Part shown: in pieces, positions 1 to 11,246 of the stretch
Numbering within the stretch: the first letter of the stretch is position 1
How the letters are laid out: every line of letters begins with the position of its first letter
NCBI GenBank assembly: GCA_038858525.1
Contig: JAWCFL010000050.1
Location: 1-11,246, forward strand
Source: Candidatus Jordarchaeales archaeon
GTDB lineage: Archaea; Asgardarchaeota; Jordiarchaeia; Jordiarchaeales; Freyrarchaeaceae
DNA length: 11,246 nucleotides
Direction: 5' to 3'
The notes under the pieces: model-generated
Database searches by the model: none
Seen by the model: only the letters and a program-made list of their open reading frames with translations
What the model was told of the DNA's origin: nothing
Made by a program: the position numbers and the translations under genes

Positions 1-294
1 TTGAAGCTTGAGCCGGGCGCTAAGAAGGTTGCTCGTGGCGCGCTCTGGGTTGAGGAGAACGTTCCAGCTGACACCGTGTTCCACACTGTTTTCATGTATT
101 CTAGGCCGAGGGGTAAAGGTGCTGATGGGTTGAGTGATGCGGTGTCTGTTAGGGAGTTTGTTGAGGGGCACTTCGAGTCGAGGGGCTACTACTTGGTTAT
201 TGGTGGTAATGAGACTGTTGGGAGGGGGCTTGTAAAGCTGACTTTTATTGGAGGGGTGAAGGTTGGAGGTGGCCGTGTCGCAAAAAGCTCTTAA
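1..294 (+). CDS. cmr4: Type III-B RAMP backbone subunit Cmr4, C-terminal part only (gene begins upstream of the window)
   Basis: GALWVEENVPADTVF and IGGNETVGRGLV match the Cmr4 C-terminal GxLWxEExxP and GGxETxGxG motifs. It lies directly before cmr5. The TTG at position 1 is probably not the real start, and the catalytic Asp region is outside the window. Confidence 0.92.
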   Translation: MKLEPGAKKVARGALWVEENVPADTVFHTVFMYSRPRGKGADGLSDAVSVREFVEGHFESRGYYLVIGGNETVGRGLVKLTFIGGVKVGGGRVAKSS

Positions 295-781
295 GTACGC
301 TCTCGAGACGGCGTTTAGCCACCTTGAGAGTGTTGCTCGCGGTTTTAACAATGATGGCAGGGCGCTTGGCAGTAAGCTGAGGACTAGGTCTAGGAGCATG
401 CCGGCGTTGATGTTTGACACCGGGTTGCTTCCGACATTGACTTTCCTTTGGGCTAAGGCTGGGGATGAAACCTATAAGAAAGTTTACGGTTTGCTGGAGA
501 AGGAGGAGCAGCCGCAGGCGAAAGGGGAGTTGGGCGGTAAGGAGAAGAGGGCGCCGTCTCTAGAGGAGCTGAGCTACGCCCTATACCTTTACGGTGTGCT
601 GAAGTTTCTGTGTCACAATGGGATTCTGAGCACTGATAGTGTGGCTGACCCGAAAAGCGCCATCGAGTCGCTGGTTAGGAGCGGGATTAACAACGTTATG
701 GCTTCTCTCAGGTTGCTTGAGCCATACTTGGTAGAGTTGAAGAAGCTGTGTGAAGCAGCCTACGAGGAGGAGAAAGAGTGA
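263..781 (+). CDS. cmr5: Type III-B small subunit Cmr5 (Cas11)
   Basis: RSRSMPALMFDTGLLPTLTFLWAK matches the Cmr5 PxxIxxxGLxxxxxFxxxK signature. The protein is helical and 172 aa, between cmr4 and cmr1. The start is either TTG 263 or GTG 275 (after GGAGGTG at 265-271). Confidence 0.88.
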   Translation: MEVAVSQKALKYALETAFSHLESVARGFNNDGRALGSKLRTRSRSMPALMFDTGLLPTLTFLWAKAGDETYKKVYGLLEKEEQPQAKGELGGKEKRAPSLEELSYALYLYGVLKFLCHNGILSTDSVADPKSAIESLVRSGINNVMASLRLLEPYLVELKKLCEAAYEEEKE

Positions 782-2331
782 GCTTAAAGATTGATCAGCC
801 AAGGGGTTGCGCCGTCGACATTGGGAGGGCTGAGGGCGAGGTTTTATCGAAGGTTAAGGATAAGCTTCTGGCGGTTATAAGTTTTGAGAACGTTACTCCT
901 ACAATTATAGGGGGGTATAACGCTGCCGCTGCGTCGCTGAAGCTGGGAGTTGCTGAATCTGTTAGGCTTACTGAGGTGAAGGGGTTATGGAGGTGGTGGG
1001 CTAGAGCCCTCCTCCTTGGATGCAATGGAAGGCAAGGATGGGGGAACACTGAGGAGGTTTGGAGGAAGGTTGCCGACCTGCTTGGATCGACGGAAAAGCC
1101 GAGCAGGGTGAGTCTGAGGCTGGTCATGGAGACTAATACATGCAGCCTCTTCAAGGAGAGAAAGGATGGGTTATTGAAGGAGGCTGAGGATTACTCGCGC
1201 AGAAAAATCTCCAAATTAATTGAGAAGGTGAAAAAAGATAAAGGGCAAGGAGGCAGGGTTGCTTCGAAAGGTGCGGTTAATCGGTCAGCCGGAAAGGAGC
1301 TCTACGAGTTAGCTGAAAAGTTAGCTGAGAATATACCTCGCACTAAGATCATAGGGATGGGTGTCCCATACAATGAAGGCAAAATTAAGCGTATCATTAA
1401 AGATGGGAGGGTCGATGAGGTGATGATTGACAAAATGGCGAAGACGAATGCTAAGTATTTGGTGGACAAGTTCTTTGTGCTTAGTCCCGGGGAGCTTAGG
1501 GGGAGAATTGAAGTTTATGATGATCTTCGGGGTAAGGTTGGTCTTAACGACAACGAGCAGGGTTTTCTCGTCGGGTCGCTACTTGTCGCGTTGGTTTTCG
1601 GCGGGTTGGGTGCGATAACTTCGAGGGGCTTCGGCGCCGTCCGCCTATCGGTTTCAGCTGGAAAGGAGTCGGTTAGAAAGTTCGAGGAACTAGTGAAAAA
1701 GATTTTTTCAGGGGAGAATGTCGAGGAGAACCTGAAGAAATTGGTGGACCTCGCTCTTGAGTATGGAAGAAGGCTGGTGAAGGTTACAGGTAAAGGTCGT
1801 GAGTTTTCTATTCCTAGTTATCCTACAGTGGACCTAGATGGTGGAGCTTTCAGGTTTGATGTTGTCGGGGTGAAAGCCAGAGACAGCCTCGAGCTTCTCG
1901 AAAAAATCGGGAATGCCACGTTGAAAAGCAAGTGGAAGGAACTTAAGAATTACTCTGTGATGAGGAGCGGCGCCACTCTCCACACGTGGATATTAGGGTT
2001 GCCGAGAACGCAGCAAAAAAAGGGGTATTACTACGAGTATAAGGTAGACGAGAGTAGGAGGAGAAGCGCGATTCATATACGTCCATTGATTCCTCCGAGG
2101 AGAGGGGAGGAGAAATGGGTTGTTGTATTGTACGGGTTCATCTCCATGGACTGGGACGTTGACATGTTAATTCATCATGGTAAAGTAAGTAAAAAGGTGA
2201 TGGAGTATGATGTTGAGACAGTGAATTCAAGGGTTTCGACTGGTAGGAGCGGCTCGAGGGAGGATTTCATTAGAGACGTCTTCGATGCTGCTTTCGGCTT
2301 CGTTAAAAAGAGTATTCTGGGGAGAGGATGA
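778..2331 (+). CDS. cmr1: Type III-B RAMP protein Cmr1
   Basis: Carries VTPTIIGGYN, VRLTEVKGLWRWWARAL, the G-rich loop FGGLGAITSRGFG and a C-terminal ILGLPR...RRRSAIHI. The GTG start overlaps the cmr5 stop (GTGA). Confidence 0.92.
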   Translation: MSLKIDQPRGCAVDIGRAEGEVLSKVKDKLLAVISFENVTPTIIGGYNAAAASLKLGVAESVRLTEVKGLWRWWARALLLGCNGRQGWGNTEEVWRKVADLLGSTEKPSRVSLRLVMETNTCSLFKERKDGLLKEAEDYSRRKISKLIEKVKKDKGQGGRVASKGAVNRSAGKELYELAEKLAENIPRTKIIGMGVPYNEGKIKRIIKDGRVDEVMIDKMAKTNAKYLVDKFFVLSPGELRGRIEVYDDLRGKVGLNDNEQGFLVGSLLVALVFGGLGAITSRGFGAVRLSVSAGKESVRKFEELVKKIFSGENVEENLKKLVDLALEYGRRLVKVTGKGREFSIPSYPTVDLDGGAFRFDVVGVKARDSLELLEKIGNATLKSKWKELKNYSVMRSGATLHTWILGLPRTQQKKGYYYEYKVDESRRRSAIHIRPLIPPRRGEEKWVVVLYGFISMDWDVDMLIHHGKVSKKVMEYDVETVNSRVSTGRSGSREDFIRDVFDAAFGFVKKSILGRG

Positions 2332-3195
2332 GTGTTGCCGAGTAGTGATATGTCTGCTGAAGTACGCGACGTGGCTAAACTTGTAAATAACGTTAAGAGT
2401 GAGGAGGCAAACCTATGGTCGTTTATGGTTTTATGTTTCCTAAACGCGAACCTGGATGGCGTGATGAGTGCGAGGAAGGGTGGGCAGGGGCAGGATGAGT
2501 CGAGCGGCGAGGAGTGGAAGCGCAGGCTTGTAGAGCAAATGTGCTTGGCTTCCAAGATGTGTGCGGCATCCTCGCTCGAGCGGGCTAAGAAGCTTTCCAA
2601 AGCAGCATCTGAAGGATACATGCGCCTAGGATACCACGTTTTATCAGTTGACGCCGAACTCATTGGGAGAGGACTATTCTCCGCTAGCTCCTCTTTCGGG
2701 CACGTCGCGTTCGAAGTTGGATTATCATTTGACTGGCTCCTGAATCTTCCATTCGTGGCTGGCTCAAGCTTTAAGGGAGCCGTTAGGTCTGCCTGGCGCG
2801 CCCTCAACTATGATGGTGAGAGTGAGGCTTTCGGCGGCGAGCAAGTTGGCTCCATAGTTTTCATGGACGCTTATCCTGTTCAGGCTGGCCTTGAAGGCTA
2901 CATATTATACCCTGACGTTTTAACCCCTCACTACTCAAGGGAGGGGAGGGACGTGTTCGATGAGACTGAGGCTTGCCCGGTTCCAGTGGTTTACTTGACG
3001 GTCGCTCCCGGTGTGGTTTTCAGGTTTCAGGTTGCCGTGAGAAAGGAGAAAACCGTTGACCTAGGGAAGCTACTTAAGAGCGTGCTCTACGCGTTCAAGA
3101 TGGGGTTAGGGGCGAAGACCTCTGCCGGGTACGGAGTGTTTCAGGCGAAGCACGACGCGTTTAAGGTCCTAGTTGCAGGAGGAGTGAAGAAGTGA
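2332..3195 (+). CDS. cmr6: Type III-B RAMP protein Cmr6
   Basis: EVGLSFDWLLNLPFVAGSSFKGAVR, GSIVFMDAYP, PDVLTPHY, PVPVVYLTV and GLGAKTSAGYG are the classic Cmr6 motifs. It abuts the cmr1 stop. The start could instead be ATG 2350. Confidence 0.93.
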   Translation: MLPSSDMSAEVRDVAKLVNNVKSEEANLWSFMVLCFLNANLDGVMSARKGGQGQDESSGEEWKRRLVEQMCLASKMCAASSLERAKKLSKAASEGYMRLGYHVLSVDAELIGRGLFSASSSFGHVAFEVGLSFDWLLNLPFVAGSSFKGAVRSAWRALNYDGESEAFGGEQVGSIVFMDAYPVQAGLEGYILYPDVLTPHYSREGRDVFDETEACPVPVVYLTVAPGVVFRFQVAVRKEKTVDLGKLLKSVLYAFKMGLGAKTSAGYGVFQAKHDAFKVLVAGGVKK

Positions 3196-10991: not shown

Positions 10992-11150
10992 AACAACAAT
11001 GCACAACTTGTGCATCGGGAAAAGAGGAAGGGCGAAAAAAGGAAAAAGAAGAAGAAAACAAGATAAAAAAGAAAGAGGGAAGCAAATAAAAAGGAAAAAC
11101 CGAAAAACAAACCAAAAACACCAGATCAACCATTGCGAAAACAACAATCA

Positions 11151-11166
11151 CATATATACCTTTCGG
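11151..11166 (-). promoter_or_regulatory. BRE+TATA-like element CCGAAAGGTATATATG on the minus strand
   Basis: Purine-rich CGAAAG directly followed by TATATAT, in an otherwise T-poor + strand non-coding region. Motif match only. Confidence 0.45.
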
Positions 11167-11246
11167 TCATCGACAAACACCGATAAAAACACAAGAAAAA
11201 AACACAAAAAAAGAAGAAAAAAGAAAACCTTAAAAACAAAAAACAA

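What the first reader, a model, noticed from the sequence alone, without database searches (positions are those of the whole stretch)
1..11246. Kilobase-scale saw-tooth G+T / A+C strand skew
Seen (hand counts, + strand G+T fraction): about 66% at 1-240, about 28% at 7381-7560 (only 6 T in 180 nt), about 57% at 7621-7740 and about 20% at 10801-10860. The skew drifts down across the cmr operon, resets sharply near 7600, then drifts down again. Synonymous codons follow it: GTT/GCT/GGT in cmr4 versus GCA/ACA/ATA/CTA at the end of cmr3, while ORFs stay intact. It does not simply follow gene orientation, because cas4 (+) is A/C-rich from its first codon. The shape resembles factory-roof skew domains or single-strand deamination gradients (C>T, A>G), but at a 4-8 kb scale. 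Inference: frequent local replication or repair initiation sites, or persistent single-strand exposure, in this lineage.
Basis: partly seen in the sequence, partly recalled or inferred. Interest (0 to 1): 0.65.

Follow-up and report, generated by a model that had tools for sequence, protein, structure and literature searches.

The report
Kilobase strand-bias gradients at transcription hotspots
In this hot-spring Asgard archaeon and its closest relatives, DNA next to CRISPR arrays, tRNA and rRNA genes and some promoters is so one-sidedly mutated that silent codon positions reach 94-100% A/C (or G/T) on one strand for 1-3 kb; this is a real and extreme footprint of strand-specific mutation, not an artefact.

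Summary
All four hand counts are exact. At third codon positions the + strand G+T fraction falls from 0.74 to 0.20 across the cmr operon. It resets at 7585-7600, then falls to 0.00 at the 3' end of cas4.

The sequence is reproducible: contigs from six other public samples are 99.98-100% identical. The bias sits at silent sites, so it is a fixed mutation bias under purifying selection.

It is genome-wide. Sharp A+C|G+T up-jumps outnumber down-jumps 86 to 14, and 88% are intergenic. It is also lineage-specific. EF-1alpha third-position G+T is 0.62-0.86 in the five genomes of this family and 0.31-0.54 in 25 other Asgard genomes.

The strongest gradients start at CRISPR arrays, tRNA genes, both rRNA genes and some promoters. 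The strand leaving them 5'->3' is G+T-rich whatever the gene orientation. The window is the unique DNA between two CRISPR leaders, with a third internal start.

The jumps are not regular 4-8 kb replication units. My best reading (0.45) is C>T plus A>G change on DNA exposed by transcription or R-loops. An origin-like bubble is not excluded.

The scan had already noted this sawtooth in at least eight other windows of this genome.

The parts
1..2400 (+). Tail of a G+T-rich (+ strand) gradient that enters from the left. The fraction is 0.65 at 1-300 and decays to about 0.55. Third-position G+T is 0.74, 0.72 and 0.64 in the first three genes.
   Evidence: In the longer public contig L099 the same gradient reaches 0.77-0.83 in the 857 bp left of the window. 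There it starts at an inverted 124-bp copy of the right-hand leader.
1..7378 (+). Type III-B cmr operon. It holds the 3' part of a 316-aa RAMP gene (1-294), cmr5 (263-781), RAMP 517 aa (778-2331), RAMP 287 aa (2332-3195), cas10/cmr2 (3192-6257) and cmr3 (6251-7378).
   Evidence: Pfam hits. Public gene calls on the identical contig L099.
6600..7590 (-). One-sided gradient in which the - strand is G+T-rich (+ strand A+C-rich). It is strongest at 7200-7560 (+ strand G+T 0.26-0.28). It covers the last quarter of cmr3 (third-position G+T 0.20) and the nearly T-free spacer 7379-7590.
   Evidence: The orthologous cmr3 of a second species (G003) has the same 3' dip (quarters 0.46, 0.31, 0.20, 0.27) followed by a jump to 0.58, although a tandem gene follows it there.
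7585..7600 (.). Sharp A+C|G+T up-jump (left 0.28, right 0.53) in the 272-bp convergent spacer between cmr3 and csx3. What starts the gradient here is not identified.
   Evidence: No Rfam match and no significant fold at 7300-7760. A TATA-like run TTTTTTTAAGG on the - strand at about 7518-7528 is read from the sequence only.
7600..8600 (-). Near-neutral stretch holding csx3 (7651-7944) and cas2 (8058-8348). Third-position + strand G+T is 0.52 and 0.58.
8600..11246 (-). Gradient entering from the right, with the - strand G+T-rich. The + strand fraction falls 0.41, 0.28, 0.22. It crosses cas1b (8345-9322), cas1a (9207-10229), cas4 (10284-10991, opposite orientation) and the leader in one smooth decay of about 2.6 kb.
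   Evidence: Cas4 residues K, N, T, P, H and Q make up 38% against 22% genome-wide, and Cas1a residues G, V, F, L, C and W make up 41.5% against 33%.
10992..11246 (+). CRISPR leader, an A/C-rich low-complexity sequence. The first repeat (GAAACAAAACAAGTCCCGATGAAAAGGGAACGGCAAC) starts 16 nt beyond the window end.
   Evidence: Right extension in L099. The same repeat opens contig C49, whose flank is the mirror image (G+T 0.89 decaying over 3 kb). Short matches to this stretch occur in several relatives, some at contig ends.

Best explanation
The sawtooth is a real, fixed, locally anchored mutation bias of this archaeal family (Asgard, Jordarchaeia-like). At certain heavily used transcription start regions, the DNA strand that runs 5'->3' away from the site has accumulated an excess of C>T and A>G transitions. 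These sites are CRISPR arrays, tRNA genes, the 16S and 23S rRNA genes and some mRNA promoters. The same change reads as G>A and T>C on the partner strand. The bias is greatest at the site and decays over 1-3 kb. It crosses genes of either orientation. It saturates silent codon positions and drags amino-acid composition with it. The window is the unique DNA between two CRISPR arrays with inverted copies of one leader. It therefore carries one gradient from each end, plus a third, one-sided gradient that starts at 7585-7600. The cause I think most likely is inferred, not shown. Transcripts leave these sites in both directions: read-through downstream and divergent antisense upstream. Being untranslated, they form long-lived bubbles or R-loops. 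These leave the non-template strand single-stranded, where amino bases (C, A) are converted to keto bases (U read as T, hypoxanthine read as G). As that strand becomes G-rich, R-loops would become more stable. That feedback could explain why only some loci run to extremes.
For: It is real and fixed. Contigs from six other public samples are 99.98-100% identical to the window. The bias is concentrated at third codon positions while protein families stay recognisable. Examples: cas4 has codon-position G+T fractions of 0.34, 0.41 and 0.06, and EF-1alpha 0.55, 0.49 and 0.86. It is lineage-specific. EF-1alpha third-position G+T is 0.86, 0.72, 0.62, 0.67 and 0.81 in the five family genomes and 0.31-0.54 in 25 other Asgard genomes. 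First and second positions are the same everywhere. The polarity is anchored at transcription starts. Of 86 up-jumps, 88% are intergenic or at contig edges, against 29% of random positions. Up-jumps outnumber down-jumps 86 to 14. Downstream of the 23S 3' end, G+T is 0.72 and decays to 0.52 over 1.8 kb across three opposite-strand genes. The 16S gene has 0.34 upstream and 0.65 downstream. Nineteen candidate tRNA genes average 0.41-0.45 for 1 kb upstream and 0.59-0.53 for 1 kb downstream. At tRNA genes the flip falls exactly at the TATA box and 5' end. CRISPR arrays show the same pattern. A genome-wide metagene shows sense third-position G+T of 0.57 at the 5' ends of transcription units, falling to 0.43 at their 3' ends. 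Sharp one-sided starts (window 7585; C12:2490) fit a unidirectional process that begins at a discrete site. From established knowledge: non-template-strand C>T and A>G excess is the known signature of transcription-associated mutation, and tRNA flanks are known hotspots (PMC6130373). Divergent transcription from symmetric archaeal TATA promoters has been reported (Warman et al. 2021, cited in PMC10268837).
Against: Expression level alone does not predict the bias. The ribosomal-protein cluster (third-position G+T 0.37-0.58), a histone gene (0.38) and the RNA polymerase B subunit (0.35) are not G+T-rich. Upstream gradients are as strong and as long as downstream ones. That fits an intrinsically symmetric process better than weak divergent transcription. 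Housekeeping genes such as metK (third-position G+T 0.17, same orientation as the tRNA gene downstream of it) and cas4 (0.06) would need antisense exposure to outweigh their own transcription. The G+T-rich strand is full of T-runs, which are archaeal termination signals and should stop such transcripts. A>G is as complete as C>T, although spontaneous adenine deamination is much slower (my own knowledge). No RNA data were examined. No RNA gene or promoter was demonstrated at the window's internal start.
Confidence: 0.45

Rival explanations
1. Origin-like DNA synthesis bubbles. R-loops at heavily transcribed, mostly untranslated RNA genes prime short bidirectional or abortive DNA synthesis, or forks repeatedly restart there. 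The displaced or lagging-strand template stays single-stranded for the first 1-3 kb on each side. It deaminates there, as on the bacterial leading strand or the mitochondrial heavy strand.
For: The polarity is that of an origin: A+C|G+T, with the outgoing 5'->3' strand G+T-rich. The gradients are roughly symmetric on both sides of tRNA genes, rRNA genes and the CRISPR array. They decay smoothly across gene boundaries and orientations. The start sites are mostly untranslated RNA genes, whereas highly expressed translated operons are unaffected. No antisense transcription through metK or cas4 is needed.
Against: One-sided starts (window 7585, C12:2490; 49 of 86 up-jumps are one-sided) are unexpected for bidirectional bubbles. 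The decay reaches baseline within 1-3 kb rather than declining linearly to the next jump, so these are not replicon-sized domains. A weak version of the bias is present at ordinary promoters and at the ends of transcription units genome-wide. No origin features were sought or found.
Confidence: 0.25
2. Break- or nick-associated repair synthesis. Transcription hotspots are fragile. After resection, the strand with its 5' end at the lesion is resynthesised by an error-prone polymerase. That polymerase favours G:T wobble misinsertions (dGTP opposite T, dTTP opposite G), which makes the new strand G+T-rich over typical resection lengths.
For: Geometry and kilobase decay lengths fit resection tracts. 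A>G and C>T are equally strong, as expected for wobble misincorporation rather than spontaneous deamination. The terminal degenerate CRISPR repeat differs from the consensus mainly by C>T and A>G.
Against: Deamination of the 3' tail left by ordinary 5'->3' resection would give the opposite polarity. The model therefore needs a specific polymerase error bias and an absence of correction. NucS/EndoMS, which targets G:T mismatches, is present. No rearrangement scars were seen at the jumps.
Confidence: 0.1
3. Selection rather than mutation. For example, G/T-ending codons could be preferred in certain genes. Or T-rich outgoing strands could be selected as terminators that insulate strong promoters.
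For: T-runs on the outgoing strands would terminate read-through and divergent transcripts. EF-1alpha and the thermosome gene are among the skewed genes.
Against: The bias runs through intergenic DNA and through genes of both orientations. It forms smooth gradients inside genes. It enriches G as much as T. It is absent from ribosomal-protein genes. It gives opposite codon endings in neighbouring genes: cas4 is 94% A/C-ending and cas1a is 76% G/T-ending.
Confidence: 0.04
4. Technical artefact: chemical damage, amplification errors, or a chimeric or misassembled contig.
For: Several extreme patches lie at contig ends.
Against: Independent assemblies from six other public samples (NCBI, Logan, ENA) give the same sequence. 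The bias respects codon position and protein conservation. It occurs in the interior of a 1.1-Mb contig of another species. Contig ends are explained by breaks at CRISPR arrays and rRNA genes.
Confidence: 0.02

Closest known systems
Transcription-associated mutational strand asymmetry: excess G+T on the non-template strand in mammalian genes, strongest in the first 1-2 kb (Green et al. 2003 and Polak & Arndt 2008, from my own knowledge); non-template C>T in E. coli; tRNA-flank hypermutation (Thornlow et al. 2018, PMC6130373)
   Same: The base changes are the same (C>T and A>G on one strand). The flip falls at transcription starts. The decay is on a kilobase scale. tRNA genes are hotspots. Silent sites are hit hardest.
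   Different: The amplitude here is far larger, up to 94-100% of third positions against a few percent. Upstream flanks are as strongly affected as downstream flanks. Many genes carry the bias against their own sense strand. Ribosomal-protein and histone genes are spared. The trait is confined to one archaeal family.
Replication-associated skew: G+T-rich leading strand in bacteria and 'factory-roof' N-domains in human DNA (own knowledge; reviewed in PMC3269012 and PMC10030826, listed)
   Same: The polarity is the same, with an upward A+C|G+T jump and a decline away from it. In human DNA the jumps also coincide with active promoters.
   Different: The scale is 1-3 kb rather than 0.1-3 Mb. The decay is exponential-like to a flat baseline rather than a linear fall to the next jump. 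The spacing is irregular. No origin features have been shown.
Vertebrate mitochondrial heavy-strand deamination gradient, proportional to time spent single-stranded (own knowledge; PMC3269012)
   Same: C>T and A>G rise together on one strand. The gradient is graded from a start point. Silent sites are near saturation.
   Different: The mitochondrial case is one replicon-wide gradient in a small organelle genome. Here there are hundreds of local gradients in a cellular chromosome.
Enzyme-driven strand-coordinated hypermutation: AID somatic hypermutation and APOBEC kataegis (own knowledge; PMC2118391 listed)
   Same: The changes are strand-coordinated. They are promoter-proximal and decay over about 1-2 kb.
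   Different: Those systems are cytosine-only with sequence context and occur as somatic events. Here A>G is as strong as C>T. The changes are fixed across species, and no deaminase has been implicated.

Membership tests
Transcription-associated mutational asymmetry | The non-template (sense) strand of transcribed DNA is enriched in G+T at neutral sites | tested here: inconclusive
   Sixty genes have sense third-position G+T above 0.7, but 32 have it below 0.3, including cas4 and metK. The metagene 5' ends average 0.57.
Transcription-associated mutational asymmetry | The polarity flips at transcription start sites | tested here: met
   88% of the 86 up-jumps are intergenic or at contig edges. 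The flips fall at tRNA 5' ends and TATA boxes, the rRNA genes and CRISPR arrays. Start sites are inferred from gene positions, not mapped.
Transcription-associated mutational asymmetry | The magnitude scales with transcription level | tested here: inconclusive
   It holds for rRNA, tRNA, CRISPR, EF-1alpha and thermosome loci. It fails for the ribosomal-protein cluster, a histone gene and the RNA polymerase B subunit. No expression data were used.
Transcription-associated mutational asymmetry | Transcripts cover the skewed tracts in the predicted direction | not testable with these tools
Replication-origin skew / factory-roof domains | An upward keto-skew jump at initiation sites | tested here: met
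   Polarity is A+C|G+T, and up-jumps outnumber down-jumps 86 to 14. Initiation itself is not shown.
Replication-origin skew / factory-roof domains | A linear decline that fills the interval to the next jump, in replicon-sized domains | tested here: not met
   The decay reaches baseline within 1-3 kb with flat stretches between. The spacing is irregular, about one jump per 10-24 kb.
Replication-origin skew / factory-roof domains | Origin features (Orc1/Cdc6 genes, origin recognition boxes) or copy-number peaks at the jumps | not tested
   These were not searched. Read depth is not available.
Single-strand deamination gradient (mitochondrial type) | C>T and A>G rise together on the same strand at silent sites | tested here: met
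   On the - strand across cas4, third positions give T/(C+T) 0.93 and G/(A+G) 0.97. In C49:401-700, A is 0.08, C 0.03, G 0.43 and T 0.46. The direction is inferred from composition, not from polarised substitutions.
Enzymatic cytosine-deaminase hypermutation (AID/APOBEC-like) | Cytosine-specific change | tested here: not met
   A and C are depleted to the same extent.
Loss of deaminated-base or mismatch repair as the lineage-specific cause | UDG, endonuclease V, NucS or RNase HI missing in the affected family but present elsewhere | tested here: not met
   UDG and NucS are present in all five family genomes. EndoV is present in four of five; it was not found in this 92.7%-complete MAG. RNase HI is present here and in G002. 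None of the four separates the family from unaffected relatives.
Sequencing or assembly artefact | The bias ignores codon position and is not reproducible across samples | tested here: not met
   The third position is far more biased than the first and second. Contigs from six other public samples are identical.

The most novel reading that the evidence does not exclude
In this Asgard family, heavily transcribed untranslated RNA genes (tRNA, rRNA, CRISPR arrays) act as sites of R-loop-primed, short-range bidirectional DNA synthesis or persistent D-loops. That would be a eukaryote- or mitochondrion-like coupling of DNA-synthesis initiation to transcription start sites. The displaced single strands would then write miniature 'factory-roof' skews into the chromosome.
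Probability: 0.2. Interest if true: 0.9.

Novelty: new variant of a known kind. Interest (0 to 1): 0.7.

Why it matters
If the reading holds, these genomes carry a built-in, base-resolution record of where one DNA strand is habitually exposed. The organisms are uncultured Asgard archaea, the closest prokaryotic relatives of eukaryotes.

The skew could be used to map transcription start regions, read-through and divergent or antisense activity (or local DNA-synthesis initiation) from sequence alone.

It also has practical consequences. The bias shifts protein composition (Cas4 is 38% K, N, T, P, H and Q). It fills all six frames with spurious ORFs, because stop codons need both T and A. It distorts codon-usage statistics, binning statistics, and phylogenies built from these genomes.

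The trait appears in one family and is absent from its sister family and from thermophilic Odin-like genomes. This points to a specific, discoverable change in DNA or RNA metabolism.

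Tried and rejected
1. Artefact or damage. I first suspected single-template damage because patches sit at contig ends with the 5'-ended strand G+T-rich. I rejected this on codon-position specificity, identical independent assemblies, and presence in the interior of a 1.1-Mb contig of another species.

2. Simple gene-orientation or purine-loading effect. 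GC skew does follow gene strand, but keto skew does not.

3. Loss of repair genes. UDG, EndoV, NucS and RNase HI do not separate the family from its relatives.

4. An RNA gene at the window's internal jump. Rfam at E up to 10 gave only noise, the fold z-score was 0.40, and the terminator and promoter scans were at chance level.

5. A shared sequence motif at the jumps. Only compositional 6-mers such as TGTGTT/AACACA were enriched.

6. Strain-level SNP spectrum. The public copies differ by at most one base, so no spectrum could be derived.

7. tRNA finding. ARAGORN, Rfam and my own heuristic each found only part of the intron-rich tRNA set. The tRNA metaplot therefore rests on 19 candidates, three of them picked by eye. 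Without those three, the upstream and downstream means stay on the same side of 0.5.

8. 5'->3' resection with deamination of the 3' tail. Rejected because it predicts the opposite polarity.

9. Literature. Four searches found no report of this phenomenon in Jordarchaeia or other archaea.

Full report
**Observation**

The window is a whole 11,246-bp contig (C50) of a 2.09-Mb, 63-contig metagenome-assembled genome. Earlier notes of this scan call it an Asgard archaeon of the Jordarchaeia; I did not re-test that.

In 300-nt windows the + strand G+T (keto) fraction is:
- 0.65 at the left end
- about 0.50 by 4.6 kb
- 0.26 at 7201-7500
- 0.53-0.56 at 7600-8500, after the jump
- 0.22 at the right end

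The binomial sd for such windows is 0.029, so this is not chance.

**Genes and codon positions**

The genes are real. A type III-B cmr operon lies on the + strand (RAMP, cmr5, two RAMPs, cas10/cmr2, cmr3). csx3, cas2 and two cas1 genes lie on the - strand, and cas4 on the + strand.

The sawtooth is sharpest at third codon positions. The + strand values are:
- cmr genes: 0.74, 0.72, 0.64, 0.56, 0.51, 0.35 (cmr3 quarters 0.45, 0.44, 0.31, 0.20)
- csx3 0.52 and cas2 0.58
- cas1b 0.40, cas1a 0.24, cas4 0.06 (cas4 quarters 0.14, 0.10, 0.02, 0.00)

In cas4, first and second positions are far less biased (0.34 and 0.41). Even so, Cas4 is 38% K, N, T, P, H and Q against 22% genome-wide.

A bias that saturates silent sites while protein families stay recognisable is a fixed mutation bias filtered by selection. 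It is not damage and not misassembly. Both T-poor and A-poor DNA lack stop codons, so skewed tracts carry spurious ORFs in all frames. 'ORFs stay intact' is therefore not evidence in itself; the Pfam hits are.

**Reproducibility**

Contigs carrying the identical Cas2 come from six other public samples: an NCBI assembly, four Logan runs and an ENA assembly. They match the window at 99.98-100%.

The longest of them (L099) extends the window on both sides.
- Sixteen nt past the right end, a CRISPR array begins (repeat GAAACAAAACAAGTCCCGATGAAAAGGGAACGGCAAC). So 10992-11246 is its A/C-rich leader.
- Left of the window the G+T fraction keeps rising to 0.77-0.83. A 124-bp inverted copy (96.8%) of leader segment 10978-11101 lies 734-857 bp upstream.
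- The same repeat opens contig C49. Its flank is the mirror image: G+T 0.89, decaying to 0.5 over 3 kb.

The window is thus the unique DNA between two CRISPR arrays. Its two outer gradients start at those arrays.

**Genome-wide picture**

Third-position G+T per gene ranges from 0.05 to 0.94 (sd 0.094). Sixty genes exceed 0.7 and 32 fall below 0.3.

Sharp A+C|G+T up-jumps outnumber G+T|A+C down-jumps 86 to 14 (300-nt arms, step at least 0.2) and 197 to 51 (200-nt arms). This asymmetry is unchanged by reverse complementation. The sawtooth shape is therefore a physical property.

Of the up-jumps, 88% lie between genes or at contig edges, against 29% of random positions. The intergenic gaps that hold them are unusually long, with a median of about 350 bp.

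The strongest jumps sit at these sites:
- CRISPR arrays (C33, C42, C49)
- tRNA genes (C1:75.9 kb, C10:59.35 kb, C3:22.5 kb, C5:45 kb, C25)
- the 16S rRNA gene (0.34 upstream, 0.65 downstream)
- the 3' end of the 23S rRNA gene (0.72 downstream, decaying to 0.52 over 1.8 kb across three opposite-strand genes)
- a few mRNA promoters, including EF-1alpha, aIF2-gamma and the thermosome gene

Nineteen candidate tRNA genes average 0.41-0.45 for 1 kb upstream and 0.59-0.53 for 1 kb downstream.

In every case the strand that leaves the site 5'->3' is G+T-rich, whatever genes it crosses. metK lies upstream of a tRNA gene in the same orientation and has third-position G+T of 0.17. Pus10 has 0.16.

A weak version is general. 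Sense third-position G+T is 0.57 in the first 150 nt of first-in-operon genes and 0.43 in the last 150 nt of last genes. Average junction profiles are 0.46|0.53 (divergent), 0.47|0.52 (convergent) and 0.50|0.55 (tandem with a gap).

Jump spacing is irregular, about one per 10-24 kb. No motif is shared beyond TATA-like boxes.

**Phylogenetic distribution**

A sister species assembled into 8 contigs shows the same patches inside a 1.1-Mb contig.

The orthologous cmr operon of a third species has the same dip at the 3' end of cmr3, followed by a jump. A tandem gene follows cmr3 there, not a convergent one.

For EF-1alpha, third-position G+T is 0.86, 0.72, 0.62, 0.67 and 0.81 in the five genomes of the family. 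It is 0.31-0.54 in 25 genomes from 16 other Asgard families. These include the sister family of the same order and closed 1.4-Mb genomes that look Odin-like. First and second positions are the same throughout.

The trait is therefore derived in this family, and its hotspots stay at the same loci across species.

**Mechanism**

Composition shows both amino bases replaced by keto bases on one strand. On the - strand across cas4, T/(C+T) is 0.93 and G/(A+G) is 0.97. That is the signature of single-strand deamination or of G:T wobble misincorporation.

Three processes give the observed geometry:
- Exposure of the non-template strand by transcripts leaving the site in both directions.
- An origin-like bubble whose displaced or lagging template stays single-stranded.
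- Error-prone resynthesis after resection.

I favour the first, in an R-loop form, at 0.45. The reasons for it:
- The flips fall exactly at promoters.
- One-sided sharp starts exist, 49 of 86.
- A graded version is seen at ordinary transcription-unit ends.
- Transcription-associated C>T and A>G asymmetry and tRNA-flank hypermutation are established (PMC6130373).
- Symmetric archaeal TATA promoters are reported to fire divergently (Warman et al. 2021, via PMC10268837).

The weaknesses are real:
- The ribosomal-protein cluster, a histone gene and RNA polymerase B are not skewed.
- Upstream and downstream gradients are about equally strong.
- metK and cas4 would need antisense exposure to dominate their own transcription.
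- T-runs on the G+T-rich strand should terminate archaeal RNA polymerase.

These points favour the origin-like rival (0.25). That rival naturally singles out untranslated, R-loop-prone RNA genes.

Loss of UDG, EndoV, NucS or RNase HI does not explain the lineage specificity.

The internal start at 7585-7600 remains unexplained. No RNA family, significant fold or consensus signal was found there. A TATA-like T7AAGG on the - strand at about 7518-7528 is only a reading of the sequence.

**Novelty**

Searches of the held literature found no description of this in Jordarchaeia or other archaea.

In kind, it is a strand-asymmetric transition bias tied to transcription start regions, which is known. 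The new features are:
- its amplitude, with silent sites up to 94-100% one-sided
- its symmetry around RNA genes
- its indifference to the orientation of the genes it crosses
- its restriction to one Asgard family

First-stage readers of this scan had already flagged the same sawtooth in at least eight other windows of this genome. This report adds the quantitative, comparative and reproducibility tests.

Noticed in passing
window 10978-11101, and 734-857 bp left of the window start (L099:12063-12186): A 124-bp segment of the CRISPR leader is present as an inverted copy (96.8% identical) on the far side of the cmr operon. The whole cas locus is therefore bracketed by inverted leader copies. 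The segment contains a short palindrome (ATGCACAACTTGTGCAT).
   Followed up: partly
window 8345-10229 (- strand): There are two tandem cas1 genes. Public gene calls put them at 8345-9202 and 9207-10115. The upstream one matches Pfam Cas1 fully (E 1e-53). The downstream one matches only weakly and partially (E 1e-13).
   Followed up: no
window right end and contig C49:1-290 (L053): The same 37-nt CRISPR repeat lies just past the window end and at the start of contig C49. The two contigs probably adjoin through one array. The last C49 repeat is degenerate, mostly through C>T and A>G changes.
   Followed up: partly
G000:C1:191345-191900 (L049, L120) and G000:C12:2500-2850 (L055, L111): These are two stretches of normal or G-rich composition with no ORF call and no Rfam match. 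They sit exactly where strong gradients start, so they may be unannotated non-coding RNA genes.
   Followed up: partly
G000:C10:59353-59470, G000:C1:75950-76350 (L109, L106): These tRNA genes carry introns and are missed by ARAGORN and by Rfam even at relaxed thresholds. The tRNA set of this genome is badly under-called by standard tools.
   Followed up: partly
whole genome G000: Endonuclease V (PF04493) and the ribosomal protein L2 N-terminal domain (PF00181) were not found in this 92.7%-complete MAG. EndoV is present in the three other species of the genus. The cause could be an assembly gap or an intron-split gene.
   Followed up: no
G000:C42:13400-13946 (L054): By eye, an hsp20-like gene has ordinary composition. 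It lies between an extremely G+T-rich CRISPR-leader-like tract and the strongly skewed thermosome gene (third-position G+T 0.85). This looks like a 'hole' in a gradient. It could mark a recent acquisition or a unit-specific effect.
   Followed up: no
window 7102-7667 and 10373-11110 (both strands): Long ORFs with no family match fill the skewed tracts, for example 7102-7584 (-), 7290-7667 (-), 10493-11089 (+) and 10757-11110 (-). They arise because stop codons need both T and A. They are a trap for gene callers in this lineage.
   Followed up: partly
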